From NCBI GenBank assembly GCA_020632235.1, contig JACKFY010000001.1, positions 159,334 to 223,333 on the forward strand: 64,000 nt of DNA, in the 5' to 3' direction. The notes beneath the pieces were generated by a model that did no database searches, had not been told where the DNA came from, and saw nothing but the letters and a program-made list of their open reading frames with translations. The stretch comes from Pseudomonadales bacterium (lineage in GTDB: Bacteria; Patescibacteriota; Microgenomatia; UBA1400; PJMF01). The position numbers and the translations under genes were made by a program. How positions within the stretch are numbered: position 1 is the stretch's first letter; every line of letters begins with the position of its first letter. Shown here in pieces: positions 1-27,418 of the stretch.

Positions 1-2929
1 TCTTGATTACAATATCAACTAATCTGTTCAAGAACTTAGGAAAATCTTCAACTTGGATTCTATCCCTATATTCTTTCAGGATTAGTTCCTGAATCGTTTG
101 CTTGACACCTTTCAAGAACTCCTCTCTCTTTGATGAATTTTGCCAACCCTCATCAAGAACACTTTCCAGCCGTTTAGCTAAATCTCTAGAGAGTGAGATA
201 AGCACTTTCTGATCAGTTTCTGGTAAAAATTCCTGTGAGATAACGAGCAACCCATACTCTCTCAAGTTCAAACCCAACTCCCTTGCCTCATCTGATTTGC
301 TCTTAATGTCGTTCATTAAGTCGTAGTAGCGTTTGATTCTCTCTGAGAGGTCAATTTGATGTTGCTCAAACTCTTTACGAATAGCGGTCAATCTTTCACT
401 GAACTTCTGAAACACAGGGTTGGTGTCGATGTTAATGGAAATCTCCTGCTTGAGCATCTTCTCAAGGTTGAGAGCTTTCTCTTCATCATCCATTTTGTCT
501 AACCGTTCCAGAGTATAGATGTCGTTAATATTAAGCTCCCTGAAACTTTTGGTAATTCCTTCATAATCTAGATTCTCTTGGATTAATTTCTTGACCTTCT
601 GGCCATACTCGCCAAAGGTAGGAATACTACCATCTCTAAAAGCCTCCATGGCCAAGTTTTCTGGACGAAACTCGTTGATAAAGGCAATATAGACACTGGT
701 AGTCCATTCAAAAGTCCTGATGTACTGAGCCAAGAACGGATCAGGAGAGAGCACCTCAAACAACAATTTTAATCGGGAATATTTGTCAGTGAAGTATCGT
801 TGTTTACCTTCATTGTCTATAAAAATCTTGAGACAAGTTCTTAAATTTTCAATCGAAGGATCTTCTTGATTGATGCCAACAAAAATATCTTTAATCTCAC
901 CCAGTACTTCAAGAAATTCCTGCTTGAGATGATCCAAATCAATCATGGCTGAATCGATAATGCTCTCATCAAAATTCAGGGCATCGTAGAGATTTCTGGT
1001 AATTCCATAGTAGTCAATAATCTTTCCGCAACCCTTATTAGGATAGGTTCTGTTAGTTCTGGCGATTGCCTGTAAGAGATTATGATCTCGTAGTGGTTTA
1101 TCCAGGTACATAGCTTGCTCTATTGGAGCATCAAATCCTGTCAACAACATGTCACACACTAAGAGCAACTTGAGAGTACTATTAGGATCTTTGAATGATT
1201 CAATAATTCGTTCTCTTTGAGACTTGGTGGTGTTATATTTTCTGAGGTGCTCTTTGTCTAAATTAGGGTCGCCAGAAGAATAAACCACCTCTGACCATTC
1301 AGGAGAAATTAATTCATCAAACAACTCTTTATACCTAGCCGTTGATTCTCTGTCATAACAGACTACTTGTGCCTTAAAACCATTCGGCTCGATATAAAGT
1401 CGATAATGATCCACAATATCCTGAGCAACTGCTCGCATTCGCTTGTCTAGCTTGATTAGGGCTTCTTTTTTACCAAACCGTTTCATTACCAGTTGCTTTT
1501 GCTCTTCAGATAACTCTGTGGTCATTTCGTCAAACTGTTGGTCAACCCGATCCTCATCTATAAAAAACTTAGATAACCTAGCCTCATATGTTACAGGTAG
1601 AGTTGCGCCATCATCGATGGCTTGCTGAATGGAGTAATAGTCAAGATATCTTTCACCCTCTTGACCAAAGTTCCTGTGAGTATTGAGTGTAGTTTTGTCG
1701 ATTGGTGTGCCAGTAAAACCAAAGAAAAAGGCTTTTCCCATAGAGTCGCGCAACTTAATCGCGGCCACGCCTTCGTTAGTTCTGTGTGCTTCATCGGAAA
1801 GCACAATTACATTCTCATTCGGATTATCCAAACCGAGTGGTAGTTCATTGAACTTCTCAATGGTTGAGATAAAAATACCTCGTTCATCGTTAATGATTTT
1901 CTTCTCAAGATCACGCCTAGAAGTCACTCGAATAACGTTCTTACCTCCAGCGTTAGTGAAGGTGTCATAAATCTGGTCGTCAAGATCAATCCGATCTACC
2001 AAGACAAACACCTTCGGATTTTTCAATTCCTTAGAAAACCTCAGCTTCCAAGCAGTAAAAAACATGGTCAGTGACTTGCCAGATCCTTGAGTGTGCCAAA
2101 TTAAACCTCGTCTTTTCTCTCCATCCTGGACTCTCTCCAAAATTTTATTAGTAGCTCTGAGTTGTTGATAGCGAGCCATCTTTTTAATTCGTCCGTCTTT
2201 TGTCTGTTCAAACAAAATAAAGTTCTTGATGATATCCAGCAACCTCTCTTTGGAGAGTAATGCCACCAAGGTCATTTCAAGCTGCCCATCAAGTTTTTCC
2301 TCTAGCTCTTCATCCCGCCACTGCAAAAAATACTGCTCTGGAGCATAGGTTGTGCCGTAGACAGTCTTGAGCCCATCGGTGGCAATATTAAACATGTTTG
2401 GCCAAAAAAGCTTCATCGCTACTCGCTCATAACGCTTAATTTGACCTACTGCATTCTCATAACTGACACTAGTGGAAGCAGTGGGGCTTTTGGCTTCAAT
2501 ATCAACTACTGGAATACCGTTCAAGAAGATCATCACATCAGTTCTGATGTTTTCCAAATTACCTTCAAAATAAAACTGGTTGGTAACTACAAAGTGATTA
2601 TTTTCAATATTGTCATGATCCACCACCACATAATCTCTCATCTTGCCTGTTGCAGGATCTTTAATGTTGATTCCATTACGCAACAAATTCAAAAAACCTT
2701 CATTAGAATCAATCTTTTTTACTTCTCTCACCACACTTTGCACTTCAGTATCATCGGTCAAATTATTAATTCGCTTTATCGCTTCTACAAGGTGAGACGT
2801 AATTAAATACTGATTTTCAAGCTCACGCAGGAGCGCAAACTCATCCGATTTGATGTACTCATAACCAAGGGTTTCGGCTAAGAACTTAATAATGTGATTT
2901 TCGACTGTGTATTGTTCGTTAAATTTCAT
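1..2929 (-). CDS. hsdR: Type I restriction enzyme R subunit HsdR (C-terminus runs off window start)
   Basis: Minus-strand ORF with ATG at 2929-2927 and no stop in the window. The translation contains SF2 helicase motifs (GSGKS Walker A, VLSDEAHRT DEAH box, TGTP). It directly follows hsdM/hsdS in the same operon. Confidence 0.85.
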   Translation of the reverse strand, partial: MKFNEQYTVENHIIKFLAETLGYEYIKSDEFALLRELENQYLITSHLVEAIKRINNLTDDTEVQSVVREVKKIDSNEGFLNLLRNGINIKDPATGKMRDYVVVDHDNIENNHFVVTNQFYFEGNLENIRTDVMIFLNGIPVVDIEAKSPTASTSVSYENAVGQIKRYERVAMKLFWPNMFNIATDGLKTVYGTTYAPEQYFLQWRDEELEEKLDGQLEMTLVALLSKERLLDIIKNFILFEQTKDGRIKKMARYQQLRATNKILERVQDGEKRRGLIWHTQGSGKSLTMFFTAWKLRFSKELKNPKVFVLVDRIDLDDQIYDTFTNAGGKNVIRVTSRRDLEKKIINDERGIFISTIEKFNELPLGLDNPNENVIVLSDEAHRTNEGVAAIKLRDSMGKAFFFGFTGTPIDKTTLNTHRNFGQEGERYLDYYSIQQAIDDGATLPVTYEARLSKFFIDEDRVDQQFDEMTTELSEEQKQLVMKRFGKKEALIKLDKRMRAVAQDIVDHYRLYIEPNGFKAQVVCYDRESTARYKELFDELISPEWSEVVYSSGDPNLDKEHLRKYNTTKSQRERIIESFKDPNSTLKLLLVCDMLLTGFDAPIEQAMYLDKPLRDHNLLQAIARTNRTYPNKGCGKIIDYYGITRNLYDALNFDESIIDSAMIDLDHLKQEFLEVLGEIKDIFVGINQEDPSIENLRTCLKIFIDNEGKQRYFTDKYSRLKLLFEVLSPDPFLAQYIRTFEWTTSVYIAFINEFRPENLAMEAFRDGSIPTFGEYGQKVKKLIQENLDYEGITKSFRELNINDIYTLERLDKMDDEEKALNLEKMLKQEISINIDTNPVFQKFSERLTAIRKEFEQHQIDLSERIKRYYDLMNDIKSKSDEARELGLNLREYGLLVISQEFLPETDQKVLISLSRDLAKRLESVLDEGWQNSSKREEFLKGVKQTIQELILKEYRDRIQVEDFPKFLNRLVDIVIK

Positions 2930-2930
2930 A

Positions 2931-3701
2931 TTATTTTTGTTTTTCTTGTTTGACTTTTTGAATGCTAAACAACCTACTCGGATCATAAGAATTAGAATCG
3001 ATCCTGTACAATCCCTTTTTCGGATGTTTGACAAAGATTGTTCTTATTGGATTTGCAAAGTTATTCAAGTCTTGAAAATCAGAAACAACAGTTACTTTGT
3101 CTGCGAAAAACTCATTTATTCTATTAAAAATTTCCTCAGTTGTAGCAACTCTTTGAGATTTATATTCACTGTCATTGTATAAACGAATCGAGAACAACGA
3201 AATTGACGTTACTGACAGTGTGATGAAGAAAATAAATAATATGGAACCAATCCAAACAACTTGACTAAAATTTATTAATAGTACAAATGATATAAGCGAA
3301 AACAGTAAGAATAAAAACCCTAAATCAATTGCCGTCATGCTCTTTGGATACGCTGGCCACTGTACTGTAGCTTTGTATTTTTCTGCTTCTTCAATTCCTT
3401 TTTCGAGAATAAGCTTATTAATCTCGTCGTTAATTTGGTTTCGCTTTTTGTTGTACCCAACACTATCCCAAGGAAACAATATAAATGGATTGAGCAATCT
3501 GCTTCTCAAGACAAAAACTCCAAGTATTAATCCAATTGAAATAATAAGTGCGACCAAACTTGATGCCTTATATATTTCTTCATTGCCAGAAAAAAACACT
3601 ACAAAACTTTCATTCAAGGAATATTGAGAAATTGCCACGGCTACGGCAGCAATAAAACCAATATTTTGAAGCAAATCAGCTAAAAATGAGTTTTTGTTCA
3701 T
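2931..3701 (-). CDS. hypothetical membrane protein (about 4 TM helices) embedded in the RM operon
   Basis: 256-aa ORF with four hydrophobic helices. Its stop lies 2 nt from the hsdR start and its start 2 nt from the stop of the upstream gene. No recognisable family. Confidence 0.5.
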   Translation of the reverse strand: MNKNSFLADLLQNIGFIAAVAVAISQYSLNESFVVFFSGNEEIYKASSLVALIISIGLILGVFVLRSRLLNPFILFPWDSVGYNKKRNQINDEINKLILEKGIEEAEKYKATVQWPAYPKSMTAIDLGFLFLLFSLISFVLLINFSQVVWIGSILFIFFITLSVTSISLFSIRLYNDSEYKSQRVATTEEIFNRINEFFADKVTVVSDFQDLNNFANPIRTIFVKHPKKGLYRIDSNSYDPSRLFSIQKVKQEKQK

Positions 3702-3702
3702 A

Positions 3703-4548
3703 TTATTTTTTCCCTAACAGTTTTTTCATTTTGTCTGAAAAATTTTTTGCTTTGTCGCTTCTACTTCTGATTTCCTCAAGCAGATAAGTGAGAATAGCTT
3801 TTATTGTTTCTGCCAGATCCAGGCACTCCTCATCTGTTTTATCGTGGATTCCATCACTTAAGGCTGAATGTAAAGCCTTTAAAGGATTAAATCCATCTGG
3901 CTGAAGCGACGAGGGAAGCAAATCTTGAACAAGTTCAATTTTTTCCTCTGTAACCCTAGTTTTCTTAACTTTCTCTAATGCTGCCTGATACCTTGCTTTG
4001 TCTTCCTCATCGAGTAAATCAGTGATGGAGTTCAATAGCTCATCTATGACATTTTCAGTAATCCGTCTGAAATATGCATACGAACCGATACCATAACTTT
4101 GGGATTCGCAAACTAAACCTTTTTTGTACAGTCCGGCATCTTCACTCAACGCCTTTGCTAGGTTCTGATCGATATCGATTTCCCAAGGCGGAGTTTGGCC
4201 GATCTTCCATACGTAGCCAATATAATTATTTTCATCCGATTTACTCTTTCCAGTTTTTATAAACTCTAAAAAGAATTTGAACTCGTAACTGTTACAAGAT
4301 GAACAAATATATTTGACTCGAAAAGTACTCCCCCAAACATCAGTATTTCTTGCGGTAGATTGATTAGATGCATGAACTTCCCAATAGTTATTGTTATTAT
4401 TAAATGTCTGAACAGATTTGCAGACCTTGCAATACATATTAATTGCAGGTTGTCCAATATCAGTGATGGAATCAGCGTGATAAGGCAATTCCAGCAAGAG
4501 CTTCTTATACAGAGGATATGATTCTAAAAATTGTTTTGTGATTATCAT
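3703..4548 (-). CDS. hypothetical protein with Cys-pair zinc-ribbon-like N-terminal region and an alpha-helical C-terminus resembling DUF4145
   Basis: 281-aa ORF with CKVC...CSSC cysteine pairs. The C-terminal segment (ALHSALSDGIHD...TIKAILTYLLEEI) resembles the DUF4145 domain, which often accompanies Type I RM and abortive-infection loci. The assignment is from memory and not verified. Confidence 0.4.
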   Translation of the reverse strand: MIITKQFLESYPLYKKLLLELPYHADSITDIGQPAINMYCKVCKSVQTFNNNNNYWEVHASNQSTARNTDVWGSTFRVKYICSSCNSYEFKFFLEFIKTGKSKSDENNYIGYVWKIGQTPPWEIDIDQNLAKALSEDAGLYKKGLVCESQSYGIGSYAYFRRITENVIDELLNSITDLLDEEDKARYQAALEKVKKTRVTEEKIELVQDLLPSSLQPDGFNPLKALHSALSDGIHDKTDEECLDLAETIKAILTYLLEEIRSRSDKAKNFSDKMKKLLGKK

Positions 4549-4549
4549 A

Positions 4550-5710
4550 TTAATTTATAGTTACTTTCTGACTAAAAATATCTTGCATGAGGCCTTTTTT
4601 TAGAGATATTAGAGTGTTTTTTTGTTTAATCTCACTTTCTATTTTAATATCAAGTTTGCAAAGTATATCTGCTATTTTTTGTTGCTCATCTGAGGAAGGT
4701 TTTGGAACGTACAAATTCTTTATATGCTTTAGACTCAGGGTCTTTTGATTTGACCCCACAACCTGCTTAGCAACCTGCTCAGTGGGAATTGGAGACTGTA
4801 AAGCGTAATAGAGATATTTACCATTTATTAATGGAGATATTATTGCTGTGTTTTGTCCTAAACAAAACTGCTTCGTTGTTGCCACATAAGAAAATACACC
4901 AAAGGAACCTACTCTGCTTATGACGATGTCGCCTTGCGCTGGAACATGATTTTTTGTGAATAGGTCATAAACCTTTTTTTCAACTTTGATACAACTAGAC
5001 AGATCTAGGTCACCTTGCTTAATATCAATAACTCTAACCATTGGCAATCCATCACCTGAATACTTTGGTGTTTGATGCAGAGAATCCACGACCTTTGCCA
5101 CTAAACTAAGCATTTTTATTTCCCACTCCTCAGGAATTTCACCCAATTTTGTCTTCTTAAACTTCTTGTGTCCTATTCCTTTGGTCAACAACTCACTCAT
5201 CAAACCTTGCTTGAGCTTCTCAGTTTTTTGAATTATTTGATCAGTTTTCTCAATCGTTTCATCAATTGTAGATAAAATATCGGCAACTTTTGCCTGAATT
5301 TTTAATGATGGATTTAGTATTTTTATTTTGTTTAATGAAGCTTGATTTAACTTTCCCCTGGTTGTTCCAGAAATGTAATTTCTCAGATCTGAGTAATTGA
5401 GATAATTCATTACGAACTGGATATTGGCATTTTTTATTCTCAGAACATGAGCATGGTTATTTACCCAACTCTTACCGTTAATGATAAATGCCGTGTTGGC
5501 TCCACCTGACCAGTCAGCTCCATCTTCGCCAATAAGCAGCAATTCCTCATCAAATATGTAGTCATTAACATAGTCAACAATCCCCGTTGCGCCATAGTAG
5601 GGAATATCACCAGATTTCCTCTTTAACTTAGCAACAGGCACTCTTTTGCTATCTAAGTTTTCAGATATATCGCTTATTGTTGTTGTGGGCCATTTATTTG
5701 TCATATTCAT
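4550..5710 (-). CDS. hsdS: Type I restriction-modification specificity subunit HsdS
   Basis: 386 aa with two target-recognition-domain halves separated by a conserved central helical region (LKQGLMSELLTKG), which is typical HsdS architecture. Confidence 0.85.
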   Translation of the reverse strand: MNMTNKWPTTTISDISENLDSKRVPVAKLKRKSGDIPYYGATGIVDYVNDYIFDEELLLIGEDGADWSGGANTAFIINGKSWVNNHAHVLRIKNANIQFVMNYLNYSDLRNYISGTTRGKLNQASLNKIKILNPSLKIQAKVADILSTIDETIEKTDQIIQKTEKLKQGLMSELLTKGIGHKKFKKTKLGEIPEEWEIKMLSLVAKVVDSLHQTPKYSGDGLPMVRVIDIKQGDLDLSSCIKVEKKVYDLFTKNHVPAQGDIVISRVGSFGVFSYVATTKQFCLGQNTAIISPLINGKYLYYALQSPIPTEQVAKQVVGSNQKTLSLKHIKNLYVPKPSSDEQQKIADILCKLDIKIESEIKQKNTLISLKKGLMQDIFSQKVTIN

Positions 5711-6042
5711 TTCTTAAACAAACCAATTATTGAATCAAATCCGTACTTGATGGGAGCTAGTAATGCCTTTTCTGCTGATATAACTACCAACCTTGTTCTC
5801 CAGGGATAAGCTGCTCCACACTCATGACAGTTCCAAGGAACTTCTTTTTTAGTAAGATCCAAAACACTATCTGAATGGTACTTACCTCGAATTTTTGCTT
5901 GGCAAATCAAACATTTAGTAACTGTTTCACCACCACATTTATCACACCGCTTCTGCCTATGGTTTGGTGAAGAATCGTAGTAGGCGGTAATTTGATTACC
6001 GCACCTGCGACACACTTGCATCGTGTCGTAATAATTACTCAT
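5707..6042 (-). CDS. small zinc-ribbon protein (four CxxC motifs)
   Basis: 111 aa with CRRC...CDKC...CLIC...CHEC. It has 4-nt ATGA-type overlaps with both neighbouring genes, which suggests translational coupling inside the RM operon. Confidence 0.5.
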   Translation of the reverse strand: MSNYYDTMQVCRRCGNQITAYYDSSPNHRQKRCDKCGGETVTKCLICQAKIRGKYHSDSVLDLTKKEVPWNCHECGAAYPWRTRLVVISAEKALLAPIKYGFDSIIGLFKK

Positions 6043-6935
6043 TCTCCTAACTCCTTTCTCTTCTGCGGTACCAATTCCTCACCAGTCCCTATCATATCGG
6101 TGACATCACCGGCATGATCGCTGCCCTTGCCCAAGTAGTTACTCCCAGTTACTACTTTTCTTCCTGTCTCTTGTTCTAATTTCTTTCTGGCATCACCAGC
6201 AATATTACCGCCACGCTTGGCTACATGTTTGTTTTGGGTAAATCCTTGAGGGTGTTCTGATTTAGTAATCTCGGTGGTCGATGCTTCACCAAGCATGGAG
6301 AACAATAATTCTAAATCGCTCATGTGATCGCGCAGATTTTCTCGTTTGAGTCCTTTTACTTTCTTATGGGCAGAAGGAGTAATACCAAAGGCAGCCTTTG
6401 ATATTTCTGCCGTCAAGATCGCATATTCTTTCGATTCTTCAATACCATGCTTTTGCCATTCATCTGTGAGTTCTTCACGAATTGCGATCGAACGCATTCT
6501 TCTTTCGATCCATTCATCAGGATAGCCTTTTGCTTTGTATAAAGCTCTAGCTCTTTTTTGGGCAAGCTCGGGATCTTCAATTTCCTGAATTCGCTCATAG
6601 CCTACTTTTGCCAACCAACGTTTGAAGGGTTCTGCTTTGGGTGAAGGAACCGATTGAATAATACGAAAAATCCCCTCAGTATTGGCGCAGTTTACCTTTT
6701 GCTTACCTCCGGCTGTTTGTATCAAAAGGGGGGTGACAATTTGTCCATACCCTTTTGCCAACTCCTCATCACGCTTTCTCATTTTGCTGAGATAGTCTTT
6801 GGGATTGACGCTATCAGTTAGAGCCACAATGACATCTTCGACTACAAACCACCATTCATTTTTATGGATGGTTTTGCGGATCTCTTTTTTTCTAAAAATA
6901 GCAATTTTAGTCAATTCACTGATTTGTTTATTCAT
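6039..6935 (-). CDS. Bro-N/ORF6N-like (antirepressor/RhuM-like) DNA-binding domain protein
   Basis: The N-terminal segment EWWFVVEDVIVALTD...NPKDY...KRWLAKVGYERIQE matches the Bro-N-type fold found in phage antirepressors. The gene lies between hsdM and hsdS, a position where RhuM/Bro-like genes are known to occur. Confidence 0.5.
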   Translation of the reverse strand: MNKQISELTKIAIFRKKEIRKTIHKNEWWFVVEDVIVALTDSVNPKDYLSKMRKRDEELAKGYGQIVTPLLIQTAGGKQKVNCANTEGIFRIIQSVPSPKAEPFKRWLAKVGYERIQEIEDPELAQKRARALYKAKGYPDEWIERRMRSIAIREELTDEWQKHGIEESKEYAILTAEISKAAFGITPSAHKKVKGLKRENLRDHMSDLELLFSMLGEASTTEITKSEHPQGFTQNKHVAKRGGNIAGDARKKLEQETGRKVVTGSNYLGKGSDHAGDVTDMIGTGEELVPQKRKELGE

Positions 6936-8619
6936 AGCCTAGCTCCTTAATAAAACCTGTAACCTTTTTATCGATTTCGTCTCTTTCGGTTTCCAGCTGC
7001 TTAATTTCACCCCAAACCTGCTTAACATCAATCACTTCCTGCTCATCACTGGAATCGATGTAACGCCTGATGTTGAGATTAAAATCATTTTCTTCGAGTT
7101 CATCAGTATCAACCACGCGAGCGTATTTCTCCACGTTCTCATACTTGTCATAAGACGAAACAATCTTATCTATATCCTTCTTCCTTAGGGTATTTTGGTT
7201 TTTGCCTTCCGCATAGTCACGCTCAGCATCAACAATCAGAACCCTGCCTTTTTTATGTTCAGGCTTGTTCCTATTAAAAATTAAAATAGCTGCCGGGATG
7301 CCGGTACCATAGAACAACTTAGAAGGCAGAGCGATAACCGCTTCCAGGAGATCATTCTTGATGATCTGCTCACGGATCCGACCCTCGCTGCCTCCCCGGA
7401 ATAAAACTCCGTGGGGAAGAACCACGCCCGCCCTACCGTTGGCATTCATAGATTTCAAGATGTGGAGCACGAAAGCGTAATCGGCGTTTTTCTTTGGTGG
7501 TTGATCGTAACCCTCAGTACGACCATACTTATCGCTTTTAAATAGCTCAAATTCCCAGTCTTTGATGGAGTAAGGGGGATTAGCCACTACGATATCGAAT
7601 GTCTGTAGGTTGCCCATATTGGTCAAGAACTGGGGGTTGGCCAGCGTGTCGCCTCTCCTGATATCGGCGCTATCCAATCCATGCAAGAACATGTTGATCT
7701 TGGCGATGGCAAAAGTGCTGATGTTGATTTCCTGGCCATAGAGATAAAGAGTTCTAGCAATTTGCTCACCTGATTTATCCTTGAGATAGTTGTAGGCTTC
7801 AAGCAGGAAACCGCCAGAACCTACTGTAGGGTCATAGATGTGATCTTTTTGGTGAGGTTTAACAATACCAATAATGATTCGCTCAACTTCTCGAGGGGTA
7901 TAAAACTCTCCGCCCTTCTTGCCAGCATCAGCGGCGAACTGCTTGATCAGGTACTCATAAGCATCGCCAAGCAAATCCGAGCTTATGTAATTGCTGCCAA
8001 AGTTGTATTGGGAAAAATGGTTAACCAACCTCTGGAGTGTCTCATTAGGGAAGCGGTCTTTGTTGGCAAAATCCAGATCATCAAAAATCTTGTCCAGCTT
8101 AGGACTATTAACATTAGTAATCTTGTCAAAAACATCATTAAGCTTCTGCCCAATGCCCTCTGAAGTTTCGGCGATCACCTGCCAACTGCAATCTTTAGGT
8201 ACTTGAAAACGGTGATTGTAATCAGCGGCGGCCAGAGTCTTGTCGCCGTACTCACCCATTACACTCTGGTACTCCTCGTCCCAAACATCGCTTATCCGTT
8301 TATAAAACAGTAGTCCAAAGATATATTTCTTATAGTCAGAGCTGTCGATTTTACCTCTTAAGATATCTGCCGACTTCCATAAGAATTGCTCAAGCTGAGC
8401 TAAAGTGAGTTTACTACTCATTTCCTCTGCCAAAAGCTGGATGTCTTGCTTACGATATTTGCGGTCCTGTCTCGGCCCAACTCTAAGAGGAGTGAGTTTG
8501 CCAGCTTTCTCCCAATTTCTCAGGGTATCACGGTGGATTTTGAATAAATCAGCTACTTCCCCGATGGTTAGAAGGTCTGGTGTATCTTCAATAACTTTTT
8601 GAGTGATGCTTTTGCTCAT
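6928..8619 (-). CDS. hsdM: Type I RM N6-adenine DNA methyltransferase HsdM with N-terminal MerR/excisionase-type HTH extension
   Basis: The HsdM N-domain (LEQFLWKSADILRGKID) is present, together with an AdoMet-binding region and the VANPPYSIKDW motif IV. The first ~60 aa (LTIGEVADLFKIHRDTLRNWEKAGKL) form a MerR/Xis-like HTH. Confidence 0.9.
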   Translation of the reverse strand: MSKSITQKVIEDTPDLLTIGEVADLFKIHRDTLRNWEKAGKLTPLRVGPRQDRKYRKQDIQLLAEEMSSKLTLAQLEQFLWKSADILRGKIDSSDYKKYIFGLLFYKRISDVWDEEYQSVMGEYGDKTLAAADYNHRFQVPKDCSWQVIAETSEGIGQKLNDVFDKITNVNSPKLDKIFDDLDFANKDRFPNETLQRLVNHFSQYNFGSNYISSDLLGDAYEYLIKQFAADAGKKGGEFYTPREVERIIIGIVKPHQKDHIYDPTVGSGGFLLEAYNYLKDKSGEQIARTLYLYGQEINISTFAIAKINMFLHGLDSADIRRGDTLANPQFLTNMGNLQTFDIVVANPPYSIKDWEFELFKSDKYGRTEGYDQPPKKNADYAFVLHILKSMNANGRAGVVLPHGVLFRGGSEGRIREQIIKNDLLEAVIALPSKLFYGTGIPAAILIFNRNKPEHKKGRVLIVDAERDYAEGKNQNTLRKKDIDKIVSSYDKYENVEKYARVVDTDELEENDFNLNIRRYIDSSDEQEVIDVKQVWGEIKQLETERDEIDKKVTGFIKELGYE

Positions 8620-8689
8620 GCTCTCAATAATATCAGTATTTTAGAAAATGTCAATAAATATCTTTCATAGGTATTCATAGGTTTGATTG

Positions 8690-8745
8690 AAAAAACCAGT
8701 TGTTCGGAAATTCCGGACAACTGTACGATCTTTGCGTACAGTTGG
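8690..8745 (-). terminator. tandem hairpins followed by a T-tract on the minus strand, between the upstream gene and hsdM
   Basis: There is an imperfect 11-5-11 palindrome CAGTTGTTCGGAAATTCCGGACAACTG and a 10-bp-stem hairpin CAACTGTACG-ATCTTTG-CGTACAGTTG. On the minus strand they are followed by GGTTTTTT. This element could also be an operator for the HTH-HsdM. Confidence 0.4.
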
Positions 8746-9019
8746 TTCAACTCATTTCTTACCCCACAACAGCAGTAGTCAAGAATTCCTTGACAACTGG
8801 TGTCTACTCCACACCCATAAAAACGAGCACTGAGCTACTGTGGCCGCTTTTGTGGGGCGTTTGCTGCCTGGTTGGAGAAGTTATGCCTTACGAAACCTTC
8901 AAACCGCTTCTTGGGGACGTTGTGAAGAACGGAAAACCAAACGTTTTAATAGCCTAACCTGCATTTCGATAAACATCAGGAGTTTGAGAGCAATAAAGCG
9001 ATGTAGCTTTTTCATAAAA

Positions 9020-9922
9020 TTATCTGATAGCGGCTCTACTTACCGGTCCATCCAACTCATTGGAGAAGCTAATCAGCTGACCGCCACTAGTAAAGGCGAT
9101 GGAGATGCTTGGTGTTTCTGTGGATTCGTAGACCTTAATACAGGGAACCCCATTGCCGTTGTAATACAAGCCCTCAACGTCTTTATTTAAGTCCTCGCTA
9201 CAGGTTTCAAGCGGTGGGTTATGCTGGACAGTTTGGGCTTCGCCTCTCCAAATGAAGAAATAATTTACCCTACCGTTACCACCATCTTTCCTACCAGTTT
9301 CCAATGCCAGCTTACTCAGATCAATGTCGCCAATAGCTGAGGAGTGTTTGGCAATAAAGCTTCTGGCAAGTCGTTCGACTTCCTCCTGAGAGTAATTTGC
9401 CGAGTAATCATATTCTTTGCCTTCACTAAACCAACGGCTGCCATCGATTTTGTATCCCCAAGTCCCGGGAGTTTCTTCTACCTGCAGGACATGATTAGTT
9501 TCAGGATCCACAATAAAGTAAGTTAAACCAACTATATAAGTCTCACCTTTAGCGGGAATAAGCTTATCTTCTTCCAAGCTATAAAAAGCGTTACTACACT
9601 CATATTCCACTTCCACAGTTGGCATTTCCAGGAAATCACGAACAGAGGCAATAGCTTTCTCTCGCTCTTCCACCGGCCGCGCCGTCAGAGAACATAGCTT
9701 TTCTCTCAATTCCTTGGTGGCTTGAGCAGTATGGTCCCGATATTTAGGGTCGGTACTGAGCTTTTCGGTGATCTCTTTGATCTCCTGAACCCTTTGGTTC
9801 TCAGTTTGTTGAGTTCTATAAGACTGGTATTTTGAACGCGTCACATTAAGCCCAAAGTAAATCACCACCAGGAGCAAAATAACCAGAGCTAATCGTTGAA
9901 AATTTTTCATTGTCATATTCAT
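9020..9922 (-). CDS. hypothetical protein with N-terminal signal-anchor (secreted or membrane-anchored)
   Basis: 300-aa ORF with an N-terminal hydrophobic segment LALVILLLVVIYFGL. No recognisable family. Confidence 0.5.
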   Translation of the reverse strand: MNMTMKNFQRLALVILLLVVIYFGLNVTRSKYQSYRTQQTENQRVQEIKEITEKLSTDPKYRDHTAQATKELREKLCSLTARPVEEREKAIASVRDFLEMPTVEVEYECSNAFYSLEEDKLIPAKGETYIVGLTYFIVDPETNHVLQVEETPGTWGYKIDGSRWFSEGKEYDYSANYSQEEVERLARSFIAKHSSAIGDIDLSKLALETGRKDGGNGRVNYFFIWRGEAQTVQHNPPLETCSEDLNKDVEGLYYNGNGVPCIKVYESTETPSISIAFTSGGQLISFSNELDGPVSRAAIR

Positions 9923-23476: not shown

Positions 23477-26400
23477 ATGAAGCAAAAAAAACCAACAAGC
23501 AAAAACACCTTTGCAGATTTCACCAACCTATATTCACTCTCCAAGACTCTTCGGTTTGAGCTTGTCCCCTACAATGATGAAACAAGAACGATGCTTGGTG
23601 AGCATGACATTTCCCAAAAAGGAAAACTACGCAAGGAAAAATATGAACAGACTAAGCCTTTTATAGATAGATTGCATCGAGAGTTTGTACAAGAGGCTCT
23701 CCTAGATGTAAAGCTGGAAGAGTTAGCAGAGTACGCCCAATCATATGAGTTTTGGAAAAAAGATAAGAAAGGCTCAAAACAGAAAAAAGCACTTGAGTCT
23801 GCTGAAAAAGCTTTGCTGAAAGAAATAGGAGTATTATTTGATTCTCAGGGTAAAAAATGGGCAGAAGAATTTGCAGGTATTGAGGAAGTAAGTCTTAAGA
23901 AAAAAGATAAAGCTATTTTATTTGAAGAGGGCATTATGTCTGTGCTCAAGTATAAGTATGGAGAAGATCCAGAAAGTTTTGTACCAGGGGAAGATGGAGA
24001 GCAAGTCTCAATTTTTGATGACTGGAAGGGTTTTAGCGGTTATTTCACCAAGTTTTTTGAAACGAGGAAAAATTTTTATACAACTGATGGGAAAGCAACA
24101 GAAGTCGCAACACGAATAGTCAATAACCTTCGTCTTTTTTTGGATAATAGGGAAACTGCTAAAAATGTTTTGGGGAAATTATCTCAGAAAGATATAGATA
24201 CTGTCGGTAACAATTTTGATCTGGATGTAACAAATATCTTCACCATTGACTATTACAACCGACTCTTACTGCAAGATGGTATTGATCATTACAATATAAT
24301 TCTTGGCGGTGAGACGAAAGATAACGGAGAGAAACTACAAGGGCTCAATGAACTAATCAATCTTTGGAAACAGCAAAATCCAGGCGAGAAGCCTCCTTTC
24401 TTCAAAAAACTACAAAAGCAGATCTTGAGTCCAAAAGAAGCGTTTATAGAGCAAATTGAAAGTGATGAGGAGTTGCGGCAAGAACTGCAAGGTTTGTTGA
24501 CTGCATATGAAAAACATATTCTGCCTGGCAGAGATTTATTTCAAAACTTAAAAAATGATACGCAAGACTATGATTTAGATAGTATTTATTTCAACTCGTT
24601 TGGTCTCAACACGTTGATTCAAAAATGGGTGGGTGATAAGTCAGAGTTTATTAATAACCTCTACGATGTGCTTTCACAAAAAGAGATAAAACAGATATAC
24701 GAAGGATTTGGATTTGGTATAGCAAAACGGACAGGTGAGAATACTAAGTTTCCAGATTTTGTACGACTCTCAGACCTGCAAGCAGCATTGTTGCGCACTC
24801 CTACAGACCATAAACTTTGGAAAGAGTCATATTACTCTGACAAAGTTGTATTAGCAGATGATAAAAAGAATACTACTTGGCAACAATTCTCAACTATTTT
24901 CATACATGAGTTTGAGCAACAGTTTCAACGCAAGATAAGAGGAGAAGATAATCAAAGTATTACTGCAGGTTTGGACACTTCTTATAAAGAGTTGGTAGAG
25001 ATATTGCCAAGCATGCAGGCACCAACTAGAGAGAATAAAGTGGTTATCAAGAATTTTGCCGATGATCTACTGCGCACCTATCAAATGGCAAAGTACTTTG
25101 CTCTAGAGAAAAAGAGGTCTTGGGTGAGCGGCTTGAGCGAAGACCCAGCTTTTTATGCAGATAAAAATTTTGGTTACTACACTCATTTTTATGAAAATGC
25201 ATATGAAGATATCGTCCAGCCCTACAATAGGATCAGAAATTACTTGACCAAGAAAAATTATGGAGAGGATAAATGGAAGTTGAACTTCAATAAAAGTAAT
25301 TTATTGGGTGGTTGGCCAGATAGCCCCCCTGGAAATACACAGTATGGGGGATTGCTGTTTCGCAAAGATGAAAAGTACTTTTTGGGCGTGACAGATTACC
25401 CTAAAGTATTTGATAAAACACAAAATCCAGAGGCATTTAAAACAAGTGGAGAGACATTTGAAAAGATGGTCTACAAACAAATTGATGCCAAGACTTTGTA
25501 CGGCTCCGTCTACAAAGGTTTGTACGGCTCGAAGTACTCTGATGACAAGGAAGAAATGAGCGACAATGAATTAATAGCAAGAGTGAAAGAGGTACTACTC
25601 ACCAAAGTAGATTCATTTCCAAAACTTCACCAAATAATTAAGAAAATCGAAGCTGGTGCATATACTGATGCAAAAGAATTGGCTCGAGAGATAAGCGCTG
25701 GCAATTTTTATAACATCGATTTTATTCAGGTTTCTGCTGACTACTTAAAGCAAGGCCGTTATGTTTCTGGGAAAAATCAAAAAAATCTTTTCCTCTTCCA
25801 AATCAAAAACAAAGACTGGAATAAAGGAGCGAAAAAAACACAGGCATCTAAAAACCTTCATACCCTGTACTTTGAGGCACTCTTCTCAGAAGAGAATAAA
25901 CAAGCAAACTTCCCATTCAAACTTAACGGACAAGCAGAGTTGTTCTTTAGACCAAAGGTAAGTAAAAGTATTCTGGGTACCAAAAAGGATAAGCAGGGTA
26001 AAGAAGTTATAGACCATAAAAGATTCAACAAAGATATGTACTACTTTCATGTGCCTTTGACAGTAAACAGAACTCAGGAAGATACAAATGCATATCGTTT
26101 CAATAGAGAGATAAACGAATTTCTTGCAGACAAGCCAAATATCAACATCATTGGACTTGACCGAGGGGAGAAACACCTTATTTACTACTCAGTGATTGAT
26201 CAGAAAGGCGAGCGAATCGATGCCGGGAGTTTTAATACTATTAACGGGAAAAATTATAAAGAATTGCTTGAACAAAAAGCTGAAGAGAGGAAGAAAGCAA
26301 AACAAGACTGGCAGAGTGTGGAACAGATCAAAGACTTGAAAAAAGGCTACTTATCACTCGTGGTGCGAAAGGTTGTAGATCTCGTGATAGCACACAATGC

Positions 26401-27418
26401 CATCATCGTCATGGAAGACCTCAATATGCGGTTCAAACAGATCAGGGGTGGTATAGAACAAAGTGTGTATCAACAATTTGAGAAAGCACTCATAGACAAA
26501 CTCTCTTTTTTGGTCAATAAAGGTGAGAAAGATCCAGAATCAGCAGGGTACCTGCTACGCGCATATCAACTAGCAGCTCCTTTTGAGTCATTTCAAAAGA
26601 TGGGAAAACAGACAGGGATAATTTTTTACACAACTGCCAGCTATACCTCCAAGATAGATCCGCTGACTGGATGGCGACCCAATATCTACCTCAAGTACTC
26701 TAATCAAGAGAAGGCGAAAAAAGATATTGCCAAGTTCAAGAATATTGTGTTTGACTCAGTGAAAAATAGATTTGAATTCACCTATGATCTGGCAGATTTT
26801 TATAACAAAAAAGGCAAGATTGAGTTTCCTCAAAAAAGAGAATGGACAGTCTGCTCAAATGTAGAGCGTTATGCGTGGGACAAAAGGCTCAGTGGCAACA
26901 AAGGTGGCTATACGCATTATCCAGACCTAACTGACGGCAAAGCAGAAAATATGTTTAAAGAAAACGCTATCTCAAACTTCAAAAATCTATTTGAAAGTGT
27001 GGGAATAGATATACGCGGTGATATTCAAGCACAAATTGCACAGTTAGATACAAAAGATAACAAACAATTTTTCTCAACTTTTATGTATCTGTTCCGCTTG
27101 ATACTCCAAATCAGAAATACCAACTCTAACGAGACAACTGGTAGTGATGACAACGACTATCTGCAATCACCAGTTGAGCCATTTTTTGACACGCGCAGAT
27201 CTGCAGACTTTGCTGAAGGCCTGCCACAAAATGGTGATGAAAACGGGGCATACAATATTGCCAGGAAAGGCATATTCATCCTAGACAGACTCAGTGAGTT
27301 TGAGAACTTGACCGATAACGAGAAGAAGAAACTCAAATATCCAGATATCTTGGTGAGGAATGTGGAGTGGGATGCATTTGCAACAGAGAGTAAGATGTTT
27401 CTATCATCAATTAGATGA
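23477..27418 (+). CDS. cas12a: Cas12a (Cpf1), type V-A CRISPR effector nuclease
   Basis: 1313 aa. The N-terminus YSLSKTLRFELVPY matches the Cas12a WED-I signature. RuvC-I is IGLDRGEKHLIYYSVID, RuvC-II is IVMEDLNMRFK and RuvC-III is NGDENGAYNIARKG. It is followed by cas4-cas1-cas2 and an array whose repeats end in the Cas12a handle TCTACTTTTGTAGAT. Confidence 0.95.
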   Translation: MKQKKPTSKNTFADFTNLYSLSKTLRFELVPYNDETRTMLGEHDISQKGKLRKEKYEQTKPFIDRLHREFVQEALLDVKLEELAEYAQSYEFWKKDKKGSKQKKALESAEKALLKEIGVLFDSQGKKWAEEFAGIEEVSLKKKDKAILFEEGIMSVLKYKYGEDPESFVPGEDGEQVSIFDDWKGFSGYFTKFFETRKNFYTTDGKATEVATRIVNNLRLFLDNRETAKNVLGKLSQKDIDTVGNNFDLDVTNIFTIDYYNRLLLQDGIDHYNIILGGETKDNGEKLQGLNELINLWKQQNPGEKPPFFKKLQKQILSPKEAFIEQIESDEELRQELQGLLTAYEKHILPGRDLFQNLKNDTQDYDLDSIYFNSFGLNTLIQKWVGDKSEFINNLYDVLSQKEIKQIYEGFGFGIAKRTGENTKFPDFVRLSDLQAALLRTPTDHKLWKESYYSDKVVLADDKKNTTWQQFSTIFIHEFEQQFQRKIRGEDNQSITAGLDTSYKELVEILPSMQAPTRENKVVIKNFADDLLRTYQMAKYFALEKKRSWVSGLSEDPAFYADKNFGYYTHFYENAYEDIVQPYNRIRNYLTKKNYGEDKWKLNFNKSNLLGGWPDSPPGNTQYGGLLFRKDEKYFLGVTDYPKVFDKTQNPEAFKTSGETFEKMVYKQIDAKTLYGSVYKGLYGSKYSDDKEEMSDNELIARVKEVLLTKVDSFPKLHQIIKKIEAGAYTDAKELAREISAGNFYNIDFIQVSADYLKQGRYVSGKNQKNLFLFQIKNKDWNKGAKKTQASKNLHTLYFEALFSEENKQANFPFKLNGQAELFFRPKVSKSILGTKKDKQGKEVIDHKRFNKDMYYFHVPLTVNRTQEDTNAYRFNREINEFLADKPNINIIGLDRGEKHLIYYSVIDQKGERIDAGSFNTINGKNYKELLEQKAEERKKAKQDWQSVEQIKDLKKGYLSLVVRKVVDLVIAHNAIIVMEDLNMRFKQIRGGIEQSVYQQFEKALIDKLSFLVNKGEKDPESAGYLLRAYQLAAPFESFQKMGKQTGIIFYTTASYTSKIDPLTGWRPNIYLKYSNQEKAKKDIAKFKNIVFDSVKNRFEFTYDLADFYNKKGKIEFPQKREWTVCSNVERYAWDKRLSGNKGGYTHYPDLTDGKAENMFKENAISNFKNLFESVGIDIRGDIQAQIAQLDTKDNKQFFSTFMYLFRLILQIRNTNSNETTGSDDNDYLQSPVEPFFDTRRSADFAEGLPQNGDENGAYNIARKGIFILDRLSEFENLTDNEKKKLKYPDILVRNVEWDAFATESKMFLSSIR

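What the first reader, a model, noticed from the sequence alone, without database searches (positions are those of the whole stretch)
6928..8745. HsdM fused to a MerR/excisionase-type HTH, with a palindrome-rich region upstream
From the sequence: the first roughly 60 aa of HsdM (TIGEVADLFKIHRDTLRNWEKAGKLTPLRV) form a MerR/Xis-type helix-turn-helix ahead of the normal HsdM N-domain. Upstream (8690-8745) lies an imperfect 27-bp palindrome centred on GGAAATTCC and an overlapping 10-bp-stem hairpin. By inference: the fused HTH could make the methyltransferase auto-regulatory through operator binding, which would be controller-protein-like control built into HsdM. The same hairpins plus a T-tract may terminate the upstream gene.
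Basis: partly seen in the sequence, partly recalled or inferred. Interest (0 to 1): 0.5.

Follow-up and report, generated by a model that had tools for sequence, protein, structure and literature searches.

The report
Self-regulating Type I methylase with built-in HTH
The DNA methylase of a Type I restriction system in a Patescibacteria genome carries a small DNA-binding domain at its front end, and comparison with about 60 related operons points to a conserved pair of direct repeats next to its own promoter, not the nearby palindromes, as the likely binding site, so the enzyme probably controls its own operon.

Summary
hsdM lies on the minus strand (6928-8619, 563 aa). Residues ~16-66 are a MerR/excisionase-type winged HTH that scores above Pfam cut-offs, followed by HsdM_N and N6_Mtase. 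The three inverted repeats at 8697-8803 exceed chance.

The fusion is real and conserved: all 120 best homologues (77-96% identity, mostly Patescibacteria) carry the HTH.

The palindromes are conserved only in the closest relative. They look like terminator or insulator hairpins; P1 is followed by a T6 tract.

What is conserved is a tandem direct repeat, ACCTATGAA-N-ACCTATGAA, at 8664-8682 on the gene strand. It has a 10-bp period and sits 9 nt upstream of a near-consensus extended-10 promoter whose -10 ends 7 nt before the ATG, which suggests a leaderless mRNA. The repeat is a sharp phylogenetic footprint, present in 29 of 32 protein clusters. It is absent from HsdM relatives that lack the HTH. 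A matching half-site abuts the -35 at the head of Type III operons whose Mod carries the same HTH.

The closest solved structures are BldC, which binds direct repeats head-to-tail.

Best reading: the fused HTH binds these repeats and autoregulates the operon, probably by repression. This is a new Type I/III variant of the Type II "regulatory methyltransferase". No binding or expression was measured.

The parts
6928..8619 (-). hsdM encoding the HTH-HsdM fusion (563 aa). It is the first gene of the Type I R-M operon.
   Evidence: ORF and translation. Pfam MerR_1/MerR/HTH_17 + HsdM_N + N6_Mtase. TIGR00497 above cut-off. 120/120 best homologues share the architecture.
8422..8574 (-). Codons 16-66: BldC/excisionase-like winged HTH. 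Recognition helix H-R-D-T-L-R-N-W-E-K; wing P-L-R-V-G-P-R-Q-D-R-K-Y-R.
   Evidence: Pfam. Closest solved structures are BldC 6amk/6ama at E 1.4e-7 and 7e-7, then phage Xis gp37 4j2n. The AF2 model gives beta-a1-a2-beta-beta-a3 at pLDDT ~70-76. Invariant residues D31 T32 L33 N35 W36 E37 P44 R46 G48 R50 D52 R53 Y55 R56.
8395..8421 (-). Linker / fusion junction (aa 67-75). It includes Met67, probably the fossil start codon of the ancestral unfused HsdM.
   Evidence: AF2 pLDDT <50 for residues 67-74. All PADLOC MTase_I profiles begin matching at aa ~69-76. The junction Met is conserved in 48/54 short-linker loci. The unfused relative L049 starts MDKLTLPQLEQF at this point.
8664..8682 (-). Tandem direct repeat ACCTATGAA-T-ACCTATGAA (units 8682-8674 and 8672-8664; 10-bp period). 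Proposed operator of the fused HTH.
   Evidence: D3. It is the only TAKGAA-N4-TAKGAA match in the 64-kb window. There are 47 matches in 876 kb of related loci against 1.7 in shuffles; 44 of them are gene-strand copies upstream of hsdM. Spacing is always 10 bp. It is present in 29/32 clusters at 90% identity. Information content is 1.2-2.5 bits across the motif and ~0 bits in the flanks.
8627..8654 (-). Sigma-70-type promoter: -35 TTGACA (8654-8649), 16-nt spacer, TG-extended -10 TATTAT (8632-8627).
   Evidence: 11/12 match with TG before the -10. The equivalent promoter is conserved downstream of the repeat in related loci.
8617..8626 (-). Seven nucleotides (TGAGAGC) between the -10 and the ATG (8619-8617), with no room for a Shine-Dalgarno sequence. 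Predicted leaderless or near-leaderless transcript starting at about 8620.
   Evidence: Sequence. The distance from the -10 to the ATG is 6-14 nt in most relatives. Inference only: no transcript data.
8690..8723 (-). Palindrome P1 (8697-8723) plus a T6 tract (8695-8690 on the gene strand). Terminator-like hairpin upstream of the operator and promoter.
   Evidence: RNA fold -14.2 kcal/mol, z -4.6. L002 has a GC hairpin + U5 at the same place. Unique in the window. Conserved only in L001.
8718..8744 (-). Hairpin H2 (10-bp stem, 7-nt loop). It overlaps the 5' arm of P1 by 6 nt, so the two structures are mutually exclusive.
   Evidence: -13.0 kcal/mol. Role unknown.
8769..8803 (-). Inverted repeat P2 (15-nt arms, 5-nt gap), related in sequence to P1.
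   Evidence: I3, I1. 0/500 shuffles. -15.1 kcal/mol.
6039..6935 (-). Bro-N domain protein (298 aa), inserted between hsdM and hsdS. Its start overlaps the hsdM stop.
   Evidence: Pfam Bro-N. PADLOC candidate defence family PDC-S13, E 2.8e-116.
5707..6042 (-). DUF2321 zinc-ribbon protein (111 aa).
   Evidence: 93% identical copy at the same place in L001.
4550..5710 (-). hsdS specificity subunit (386 aa).
   Evidence: Pfam Methylase_S x2. Only 26-53% identical across relatives, while HsdM is 62-96%.
2931..4548 (-). Two uncharacterised genes (281 aa with CxxC motifs; 256 aa membrane protein) between hsdS and hsdR.
   Evidence: No Pfam hit. The 281-aa protein is 62% identical to a protein at the same position in L035. 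The 256-aa protein gives a weak 4TM-effector hit.
2..2929 (-). hsdR (at least 976 aa), running off the left end of the window.
   Evidence: Open frame found. Homologues are 56-95% identical downstream of hsdM/hsdS in related loci.

Best explanation
[quoted passage not shown] Its methyltransferase subunit has acquired a ~66-aa BldC/excisionase-like winged HTH, joined by a short flexible linker.

Proposed mechanism. The HTH domains bind head-to-tail to the two 10-bp direct repeats ACCTATGAAn at 8682-8664. One HTH is present on each of the two HsdM subunits in an M2S1 or R2M2S1 complex. The repeats lie 9 nt upstream of the -35 of the operon's own strong, TG-extended promoter.

The bulky bound enzyme and/or BldC-like DNA bending would then limit RNA polymerase access. 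This gives negative feedback that holds the dosage of the whole operon constant.

The mRNA is probably leaderless. The palindromes further upstream (8697-8803) are not the operator. They most likely terminate or insulate transcription arriving from the upstream gene.

Shown here: the domain fusion and its conservation; the repeat as a selected footprint with fixed period, orientation and promoter-proximal position; its co-occurrence with the HTH in two unrelated methyltransferase families; and its absence when the HTH is absent.

Inferred: that the HTH is the protein that binds the repeat; the sign of regulation; the transcript start; and terminator function.
For: 1. Fusion is real and conserved. 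Pfam and NCBIfam hits. 120/120 best homologues are fused. HTH residues are invariant.

2. The motif TAKGAA-N4-TAKGAA occurs 47 times in 876 kb of related loci against 1.7 in shuffles. 44 of these are gene-strand copies upstream of hsdM (39 within about 120 nt of the ATG). The other five lie at -366 to -732, at the operon head, where a gene is inserted before hsdM. The motif occurs once in the 64-kb window and never in 10 unfused HsdM loci.

3. Footprint. Flanks carry ~0 bits and the motif 1.2-2.5 bits per position, using one representative per 90% cluster. 29/32 clusters carry it. Only 0.16% of shuffled upstream regions match as well.

4. Geometry. The period is always 10 bp, and a conserved -35 / extended -10 promoter follows.

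5. The repeat is not an HsdS-specified target: HsdS is only 26-53% identical across loci that share it.

6. Correlated absence. L049 (81% identical HsdM, starting at the junction) has neither the HTH nor the repeat.

7. A second family. The same HTH (DTLRNWEK) is fused to about half of a Type III Mod-like clade. Four of five independent HTH+ operons have a TAKGAA half-site 2-3 nt upstream of TTGACA at the operon head (L201/L202, L203, L204, L210). Three HTH- members do not. Of 783 TTGAC[AT] sites in the loci, 39 have such a half-site; 37 are at HTH-methyltransferase operon heads and 2 lie inside ORFs.

8. The closest solved structures are BldC, which binds direct repeats as a head-to-tail dimer (PMC5859096).

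9. Covariation hint. Loci with a TAGGAA half-site have E, D or T in place of K38 on the recognition helix. This holds for the L054-L062 clade and, independently, for L204.

10. Sign of regulation. The promoter is near consensus. The repeat-to--35 gap varies (3, 8-11, 13-17 nt), which does not fit a stereospecific activator contact. L054 and L062 have a second repeat pair over the start site. All characterised HTH-methyltransferase fusions are autorepressors (PMC3978073, PMC12707154).
Against: No binding, transcript or expression data exist.

The repeat lies upstream of the -35 (about -45 to -63) rather than over the core promoter. Tandem repeats abutting a -35 are also typical of activators.

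The HTH and the repeat are only ~60 bp apart in most loci, so part of their co-occurrence could be physical linkage. Loci with 0.4-1.2 kb inserted between them argue against that.

In the Type III operons only the proximal half-site is clear, and one HTH+ operon (L205/L206) showed none in the DNA available.

The covariation is confounded by phylogeny (two independent events at most), and L041 is a partial exception.

The two HsdM subunits of M2S1 are related by a two-fold axis, which suits inverted rather than direct repeats unless the linker is flexible.

The full-length AF2 model is poor (pLDDT 58).
Confidence: 0.68

Rival explanations
1. Positive autoregulation. The HTH binds the same direct repeats but acts as an activator, in class I/II style as PhoB, OmpR or lambda cII do from repeats abutting the -35. 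This would give a switch-like, self-reinforcing expression of the R-M operon.
For: The repeat position, just upstream of and abutting the -35 (gap of 3 nt in most loci), is typical for activators. In the largest clade the -10 is only 4/6 (TAGACT). BldC can act as activator or repressor (PMC5859096, PMC6428758).
Against: The -35 is consensus and the -10 is TG-extended, so an activator should not be needed. The gap varies from 3 to 17 nt without helical phasing. L054 and L062 carry a second repeat pair over the start site. The precedent fusions are repressors (PMC3978073).
Confidence: 0.17
2. First reader's version. The palindrome(s) at 8690-8745 are the operator bound by a dimer of the fused HTH.
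For: The inverted repeats are real and beyond chance. P1 and P2 are related in sequence (I1). HsdM is dimeric in M2S1 (established knowledge of Type I enzymes).
Against: The palindromes are conserved only in the 96%-identical relative L001 and absent from all other fused loci. They lie more than 40 nt upstream of the -35. They have no similarity to the family-wide conserved motif. The HTH lacks the MerR coiled-coil, and its nearest structural relatives bind direct repeats. P1 is followed by T6, and L002 has an unrelated terminator hairpin at the same spot.
Confidence: 0.04
3. The direct repeat is bound by another factor or is a promoter-intrinsic element, and the fused HTH serves another purpose. 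Candidates for the binder are a standalone BldC-like protein, which is abundant in these genomes. Candidate other roles for the HTH are general DNA tethering of the methyltransferase, or acting as an excisionase-like directionality factor for a mobile R-M island.
For: 1608 library proteins match the HTH, most of them small standalone or tandem-HTH proteins. L011 has a large serine recombinase divergently upstream. Excisionases also bind tandem repeats (established knowledge; 4j2n hit).
Against: The repeat tracks presence or absence of the fused HTH in two methyltransferase families. No paralogue of the HTH lies in the 64-kb window. The repeat has a fixed relation to the promoter rather than to any island boundary. 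The half-site / -35 juxtaposition is not a generic promoter feature.
Confidence: 0.1

Closest known systems
Regulatory (dual-function) Type II methyltransferases: M.SsoII / M.Ecl18kI, also M.EcoRII, M.MspI and M.ScrFIA (PMC3978073, PMC6100179, PMC3695355; review PMC12707154)
   Same: An N-terminal ~70-residue HTH region is joined by a flexible linker to the methyltransferase. There is a regulatory site, distinct from the methylation site, in the enzyme's own promoter region. Two protein molecules bind per site. The outcome is negative feedback on the methyltransferase gene.
   Different: Those are C5-cytosine Type II enzymes with a divergent REase gene. Their operator is a 15-bp quasi-palindrome between overlapping promoters. 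M.SsoII's regulatory domain was modelled on phage 434 repressor ('hybrid M.HhaI-R434 model', PMC3978073); calling it Cro/Xre-like is my reading, and it was not compared with this HTH. Here the enzyme is an N6-adenine Type I HsdM (and a Type III Mod), the fold is MerR/BldC-type winged HTH, the operator is a tandem direct repeat upstream of the -35, and the operon is co-directional, so hsdS and hsdR would be controlled together.
BldC of Streptomyces (PMC5859096; PDB 6ama, 6amk)
   Same: These are the closest solved structures by sequence (E 1.4e-7). BldC is a MerR-like winged HTH without a coiled-coil or effector domain. It binds tandem direct repeats of ~9-10 bp head-to-tail and directionally.
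   Different: BldC is a free 68-aa developmental regulator with AATT-containing repeats. This domain scores 31.9 bits against a 77-bit cut-off on NCBIfam HTH_BldC. It is covalently attached to a 500-aa enzyme subunit and has a different repeat sequence.
RptR, repressor of Type I R-M defence islands (PMC12255303)
   Same: Transcriptional repression of a Type I R-M operon that has embedded accessory defence genes, acting through short direct repeats in the operon promoter.
   Different: RptR is a separate small homodimeric protein encoded upstream. Each of its 9-bp repeats contains the palindrome TAGCTA, and the repeats overlap the -10. Here there is no separate regulator gene; the HTH is part of HsdM, and the repeats lie upstream of the -35.
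C (controller) proteins of Type II R-M, and the C-like gene at the Mycoplasma gallisepticum Type I hsd locus (PMC12707154)
   Same: Autogenous HTH-based transcriptional control that belongs to the R-M module itself. C-gene transcripts are often leaderless (recalled from the literature, not checked here).
   Different: C proteins are free Xre-type dimers that bind palindromic C-boxes, with an activation-then-repression logic that delays the REase.

Membership tests
Type I R-M methyltransferase subunit HsdM | N6_Mtase catalytic domain with the NPPY motif, plus the HsdM_N domain | tested here: met
   PF02384 362 bits and PF12161 95 bits. ANPPYS is present in the translation.
Type I R-M methyltransferase subunit HsdM | Equivalog model TIGR00497 above its curated cut-off | tested here: met
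   281.4 bits against 242.75.
Type I R-M methyltransferase subunit HsdM | Cognate hsdS and hsdR in the same locus | tested here: met
   hsdS at 4550-5710. hsdR at 2-2929. The same gene order is found in relatives.
MerR-superfamily winged HTH domain (Pfam MerR_1 / MerR / HTH_17) | Domain score above the Pfam gathering threshold | tested here: met
   35.1/21.6, 33.3/28.2 and 31.3/27 bits.
Classical MerR-family transcription regulators | Long C-terminal coiled-coil dimerisation helix and an effector-binding domain after the HTH | tested here: not met
   The HTH ends at about aa 66 and HsdM_N starts at aa 73-76. PADLOC Type I profiles start matching at aa ~70.
Classical MerR-family transcription regulators | Palindromic operator inside an over-long (19-20 bp) -35/-10 spacer | tested here: not met
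   The spacer is 16 nt here and 16-18 nt in relatives. The conserved site is a direct repeat upstream of the -35.
BldC family | NCBIfam HTH_BldC (NF033787) above its cut-off | tested here: not met
   31.9 bits against 77. BldC chains are nevertheless the best PDB matches.
BldC family | Free-standing ~68-aa protein | tested here: not met
   The domain is fused to a 500-aa HsdM.
BldC family | Head-to-tail binding to tandem direct repeats of ~9-10 bp | not testable with these tools
   A conserved tandem repeat with a 10-bp period and fixed orientation exists. Binding was not measured.
Regulatory (HTH-fused) methyltransferases of R-M systems (SsoII type) | N-terminal HTH region fused through a flexible linker to an active methyltransferase | tested here: met
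   The linker (aa 67-74) has pLDDT <50.
Regulatory (HTH-fused) methyltransferases of R-M systems (SsoII type) | A regulatory site, distinct from the methylation site, in the system's own promoter region | tested here: inconclusive
   A conserved candidate site adjoins the -35 and is independent of HsdS specificity. Occupancy by the HTH is inferred, not shown.
Regulatory (HTH-fused) methyltransferases of R-M systems (SsoII type) | Type II C5-cytosine methyltransferase with a quasi-palindromic operator between divergent M and R promoters | tested here: not met
   This is an N6-adenine Type I subunit in a co-directional operon, and the candidate site is a direct repeat.
C-protein-controlled R-M systems / RptR-controlled Type I systems | A separate small regulator gene at the head of the system | tested here: not met
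   There is no ORF between the promoter and hsdM. The upstream 300-aa gene has no HTH or Pfam hit. No TAGCTA repeats or C-boxes were seen in 8620-8700.

The most novel reading that the evidence does not exclude
A portable cassette has been grafted onto both Type I (HsdM) and Type III (Mod) methyltransferases in Patescibacteria. The cassette comprises a strong leaderless promoter, a directional tandem-repeat operator and a BldC-like HTH coding segment.

It would give these ATP-dependent R-M systems transcriptional self-control built into the enzyme.

The same polypeptide must choose between the operator and its methylation or restriction targets. The circuit could therefore sense demand: a load of unmodified DNA (a new host, replication, or phage DNA) would titrate the enzyme off the operator and de-repress the whole operon.
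Probability: 0.2. Interest if true: 0.75.

Novelty: new variant of a known kind. Interest (0 to 1): 0.55.

Why it matters
[quoted passage not shown] Control is usually ascribed to assembly and proteolysis. A separate repressor, RptR, was described only in 2025 (PMC12255303).

If the fused HTH binds the repeats, this would be a widespread solution in Patescibacteria in which the modification subunit itself is the regulator. More than 60 loci across many candidate phyla carry it, along with a Type III counterpart.

It would extend the "regulatory methyltransferase" principle from Type II to Type I and III systems. It would also use a different DNA-binding fold and a direct-repeat operator.

It gives a compact, testable promoter-operator-regulator unit from an uncultivated lineage. 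It also flags that many database gene calls are affected: 581-aa "long" HsdM models start at an ATG inside the operator.

Tried and rejected
1. Palindrome as operator. Rejected because it is conserved only in L001 and is unique in the window.

2. Metagenome-wide scan for CCTATGAANNCCTATGAA. Only 9 of the 84 matches (in 8 of the 80 loci listed) were followed by HTH-hsdM; one search's own tally of 8 is of query-by-match hits. The rest were coding sequence, eukaryotic tandem repeats or chance. The 16-mer is not specific at that scale, so this scan says nothing either way. The local enrichment test was used instead.

3. Rfam on 8500-9200: only a sub-threshold miRNA match on P1, E 0.42. No known RNA family.

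4. Full-length AlphaFold2 with a shallow alignment (39 sequences, 76-96% identical). pLDDT was 58, too poor for a fold search. Only the secondary structure of the HTH and the linker were used.

5. Search with the 72-aa N-terminus against 50%-identity representatives. It showed the HTH is mostly a standalone or tandem module. The HsdM fusions collapse into very few clusters, so it did not measure breadth, but it led to the Type III fusion P0249.

6. The repeat as the enzyme's own HsdS-specified target. Rejected because HsdS varies (26-53% identity) while the repeat is constant.

7. Internal start at Met67 producing an HTH-less isoform. The Met is conserved, but an SD-like sequence is present in only 5/48 loci. 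Left open.

8. A terminator scan with the simple tool found none, because P1 has an internal mismatch. Folding supports a hairpin.


Full report
**What is there**

The finding's coordinates cover a minus-strand gene, 6928-8619 (ATG start, 563 aa), and the intergenic DNA upstream of it.

Pfam places three overlapping winged-HTH models at residues 16-66, all above their gathering scores:
- MerR_1: 35.1 bits against a cut-off of 21.6
- MerR: 33.3 against 28.2
- HTH_17: 31.3 against 27

They are followed by HsdM_N (aa 76-202) and N6_Mtase (aa 213-528). The NCBIfam hsdM equivalog is met at 281.4 bits against 242.75.

Downstream on the same strand lie, in order:
- a Bro-N protein
- a DUF2321 zinc-ribbon protein
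- hsdS
- two uncharacterised genes
- hsdR, which runs off the window edge

This is therefore a complete Type I R-M operon with embedded accessory genes. Homologues are named as Patescibacteria (Levy-, Gottesman-, Buchanan-, Peregrini-bacteria and others).

**Is the fusion real?**

Yes.
- All 120 best database homologues (77-96% identity) carry the HTH domains.
- Eighteen HTH residues are invariant in a 39-sequence alignment, including D31 T32 L33 N35 W36 E37 on the recognition helix.
- A near-consensus promoter sits directly in front of the annotated ATG.

The promoter is TTGACA, 16 nt, then a TG-extended TATTAT (11/12 match). Its -10 ends 7 nt before the ATG. That leaves no room for a Shine-Dalgarno sequence and suggests a leaderless mRNA, which is an inference.

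All PADLOC Type I methyltransferase profiles start matching only at residue ~70. The HTH is therefore an add-on to the canonical subunit.

The junction carries a Met (M67) that is conserved in 48 of 54 short-linker relatives. A natural unfused relative, L049 (81% identical), begins MDKLTLPQLEQF at exactly that point. This Met is probably the fossil of the ancestral start codon.

**The palindromes**

A third inverted repeat lies at 8769-8803.

None is expected by chance: they occurred in 0/500, 2/500 and 0/500 shuffles.

They are conserved only in L001, whose HsdM is 96% identical and which shares ~300 nt of upstream homology. No other fused locus has them.

On the gene strand, P1 folds at -14.2 kcal/mol and is followed by G-U6. 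L002 has an unrelated GC-rich hairpin (-24 kcal/mol) plus U5 at the same position.

I read P1 as a terminator or insulator for transcription coming from the upstream gene. The roles of H2 and P2 are unknown. H2 and P1 are mutually exclusive structures.

**What is actually conserved**

Lining up the DNA upstream of about 60 fused hsdM genes fetched from public genomes shows one common element. It is the tandem direct repeat ACCTATGAA-N-ACCTATGAA, which in the window is 8682-8664 on the gene strand (family D3).

Enrichment:
- The relaxed pattern TAKGAA-N4-TAKGAA occurs 47 times in 876 kb of these loci, both strands, against 1.7 in shuffles.
- 44 of these are gene-strand copies upstream of hsdM; 39 lie within about 120 nt of the ATG.
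- In five loci the motif is 366-732 nt upstream. There a small gene has been inserted between the promoter and hsdM, so the motif stays at the operon head.
- It occurs exactly once in the 64-kb window.
- It does not occur at all in ten loci encoding unfused HsdM (42-46% identity).

Footprint:
- With one representative per 90%-identity protein cluster, 29 of 32 clusters have the repeat.
- The exceptions are the inserted-gene case L003 and the L058/L060 TAGGAA variants.
- Information content is ~0 bits in the flanks and 1.2-2.5 bits per position across A-CCTATGA(A/T)-(A)A-CCTATGAA.
- Only 0.16% of shuffled upstream regions match as well.

Geometry:
- The period is always 10 bp and the orientation is always the same.
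- A conserved -35 / extended -10 promoter follows after a gap of 3 nt (most loci), 8-11 nt (9 in the window) or 13-17 nt.

HsdS is only 26-53% identical among these loci. The repeat therefore cannot be the enzyme's HsdS-specified target.

**Link between the repeat and the HTH**

1. L049 lacks both the HTH and the repeat.

2. The closest solved structures to the 72-aa N-terminus are BldC (6amk E 1.4e-7; 6ama E 7e-7), followed by a mycobacteriophage Xis. BldC is a MerR-like winged HTH without a dimerisation helix. It binds 9-bp direct repeats as a directional head-to-tail dimer (PMC5859096). The AF2 model gives the same beta-a1-a2-beta-beta-a3 topology and a disordered linker at residues 67-74. 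The full-length model is otherwise poor.

3. The same HTH, with the DTLRNWEK recognition helix, is fused to a different enzyme. This is a Type III Mod-like N6_N4 methyltransferase that is followed by a ResIII helicase gene. About half of its 120 best homologues are fused and half are not.
- Four of five independent HTH+ operons have a TAKGAA half-site 2-3 nt upstream of TTGACA at the operon head. These are L201/L202, L203, L204 and L210; in three of them (L203, L204, L210) another gene lies between the promoter and mod.
- Three HTH- members have none.
- In these operons the distal repeat unit is degenerate or different (ACCTCGCTAA in L204 and L210).

4. Across all loci, 39 of 783 TTGAC[AT] sites carry such a half-site. 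Of these, 37 are at heads of HTH-methyltransferase operons and 2 lie inside ORFs. This is therefore not a generic promoter feature.

5. Loci whose repeats contain TAGGAA rather than TATGAA have E, D or T instead of K38 on the recognition helix. This holds for the L054-L062 clade and, independently, for the Type III locus L204. L041 is a partial exception. The signal rests on at most two independent events.

**Mechanism**

The most economical reading is that the fused HTH binds the repeats and makes the operon autoregulatory.

I favour repression for four reasons:
- The promoter is near consensus and TG-extended, so it should not need an activator.
- The repeat-to--35 distance varies without helical phasing. 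That fits occlusion or bending by a large M2S1 complex better than a stereospecific activating contact.
- Two loci have a second repeat pair over the start site.
- Every characterised HTH-methyltransferase fusion is an autorepressor (PMC3978073, PMC6100179, PMC12707154).

Activation remains a serious alternative, because tandem repeats abutting a -35 are typical of activators. Binding, the transcript start, terminator function and the sign of regulation are all inferred.

**Comparison with what is known**

Regulatory methyltransferases with an N-terminal HTH are established for Type II C5 enzymes such as M.SsoII, M.Ecl18kI and M.EcoRII. Those have a quasi-palindromic operator between divergent promoters (PMC3978073, PMC12707154).

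For Type I systems, the 2025 EcoSal Plus review notes "surprisingly little information" on transcriptional regulation. The separate repressor RptR, which binds direct repeats in a Type I island promoter, was reported in 2025.

My literature searches found no description of an HTH-fused HsdM or of this repeat. The searchable library lacks most subscription journals, so absence there is not proof of novelty.

Public annotation calls these proteins simply "type I restriction-modification system subunit M". One fused Mod is named "MerR family transcriptional regulator".

I therefore class this as a new variant of a known kind. The logic is the same as SsoII. It differs in enzyme class (Type I and III), in DNA-binding fold (BldC/Xis-like), in operator architecture (directional tandem repeat upstream of the -35), and in controlling the whole co-directional operon.

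**Verdict**

Interest is moderate (0.55). The case is coherent and readily testable, and it rests on comparative evidence only.

Noticed in passing
window 23477-29407 (+), low-GC stretch 24-32 kb: A 1313-aa protein with REC1, RuvC_1 and NUC domains (Cas12a/Cpf1-like) is followed by Cas4 and Cas1, which points to a type V-A CRISPR-Cas locus. The neighbouring 30-32 kb is 33% GC and may hold the array.
   Followed up: partly
window 6039-6935 (-): The Bro-N protein inserted between hsdM and hsdS matches the PADLOC candidate defence family PDC-S13 (E 2.8e-116). Homologues sit next to hsdM in L006, L028 and L041. Its start overlaps the hsdM stop.
   Followed up: partly
window 2931-4548 (-) and 5707-6042 (-): Three further small genes are embedded in the R-M operon. 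One is a DUF2321 zinc-ribbon protein. One is a 281-aa CxxC protein with no family hit, conserved at the same position in L035. One is a 256-aa membrane protein with a weak 4TM-effector hit. The accessory genes between hsdM, hsdS and hsdR differ from locus to locus.
   Followed up: partly
window 8419-8421 (Met67 codon); L001-L070: A Met at the HTH/HsdM junction is conserved in 48 of 54 short-linker relatives, without a conserved Shine-Dalgarno sequence. It is probably the ancestral HsdM start. It could in principle give an HTH-less isoform.
   Followed up: partly
L014-L030 and similar loci, positions about -60 from the hsdM ATG; proteins P0091-P0120 of 581 aa: Many database HsdM models are 18-20 aa too long. 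They start at the in-frame ATG inside the first CCTATGAA repeat and read through the promoter.
   Followed up: yes
L013-L052 (largest clade), about 60-110 nt upstream of the direct repeat: A further conserved upstream block is present..AATGACGC..GGAGTCCAGAGCGTCCC..GTAGATAAC..TAAATTACCC.TATTTT... It includes a GACGC/GCGTC inverted repeat and is shared by loci in different genomic contexts. Its function is unknown. These loci are closely related, so conservation by descent is not excluded.
   Followed up: no
L011 1723-1839, and L018, L032, L034: A 38-aa very basic ORF (MAKTKTSAYGKQKQKIVPVRGYVKNGKRVKPHRRSTPN) lies between the repeat-promoter and hsdM in four loci. In L011 a large serine recombinase lies divergently upstream.
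   Followed up: no
P0121, P0126, P0182, P0222, P0257: The same HTH type occurs as proteins made of up to eight tandem HTH copies (P0121, 623 aa). It also occurs at the N-terminus of very large proteins of 1000-5300 aa, including one with a transmembrane segment (P0182).
   Followed up: no
L054 1620-1640 and L062 5983-6000: A second TAGGAA-ATGA-TAGGAA pair overlaps the predicted transcript start and the ATG of hsdM in two related loci.
   Followed up: partly
L207 1400-1440: In the HTH-less Mod relative that starts just after the point where the HTH would end, the upstream DNA still holds TCTATGAT followed by TTTATA rather than TTGACA. This may be a decayed remnant of the half-site/-35.
   Followed up: no
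window 8820-8990 (-) versus L001 280-400: About 150 nt of intergenic DNA upstream of the hairpins is also conserved with L001 (CCAGGCAGCAAACGCCCCACAAAAGCGGCCACAGTAGCTCAG...). It has no ORF and no Rfam match. It could be a small RNA or a relic.
   Followed up: no
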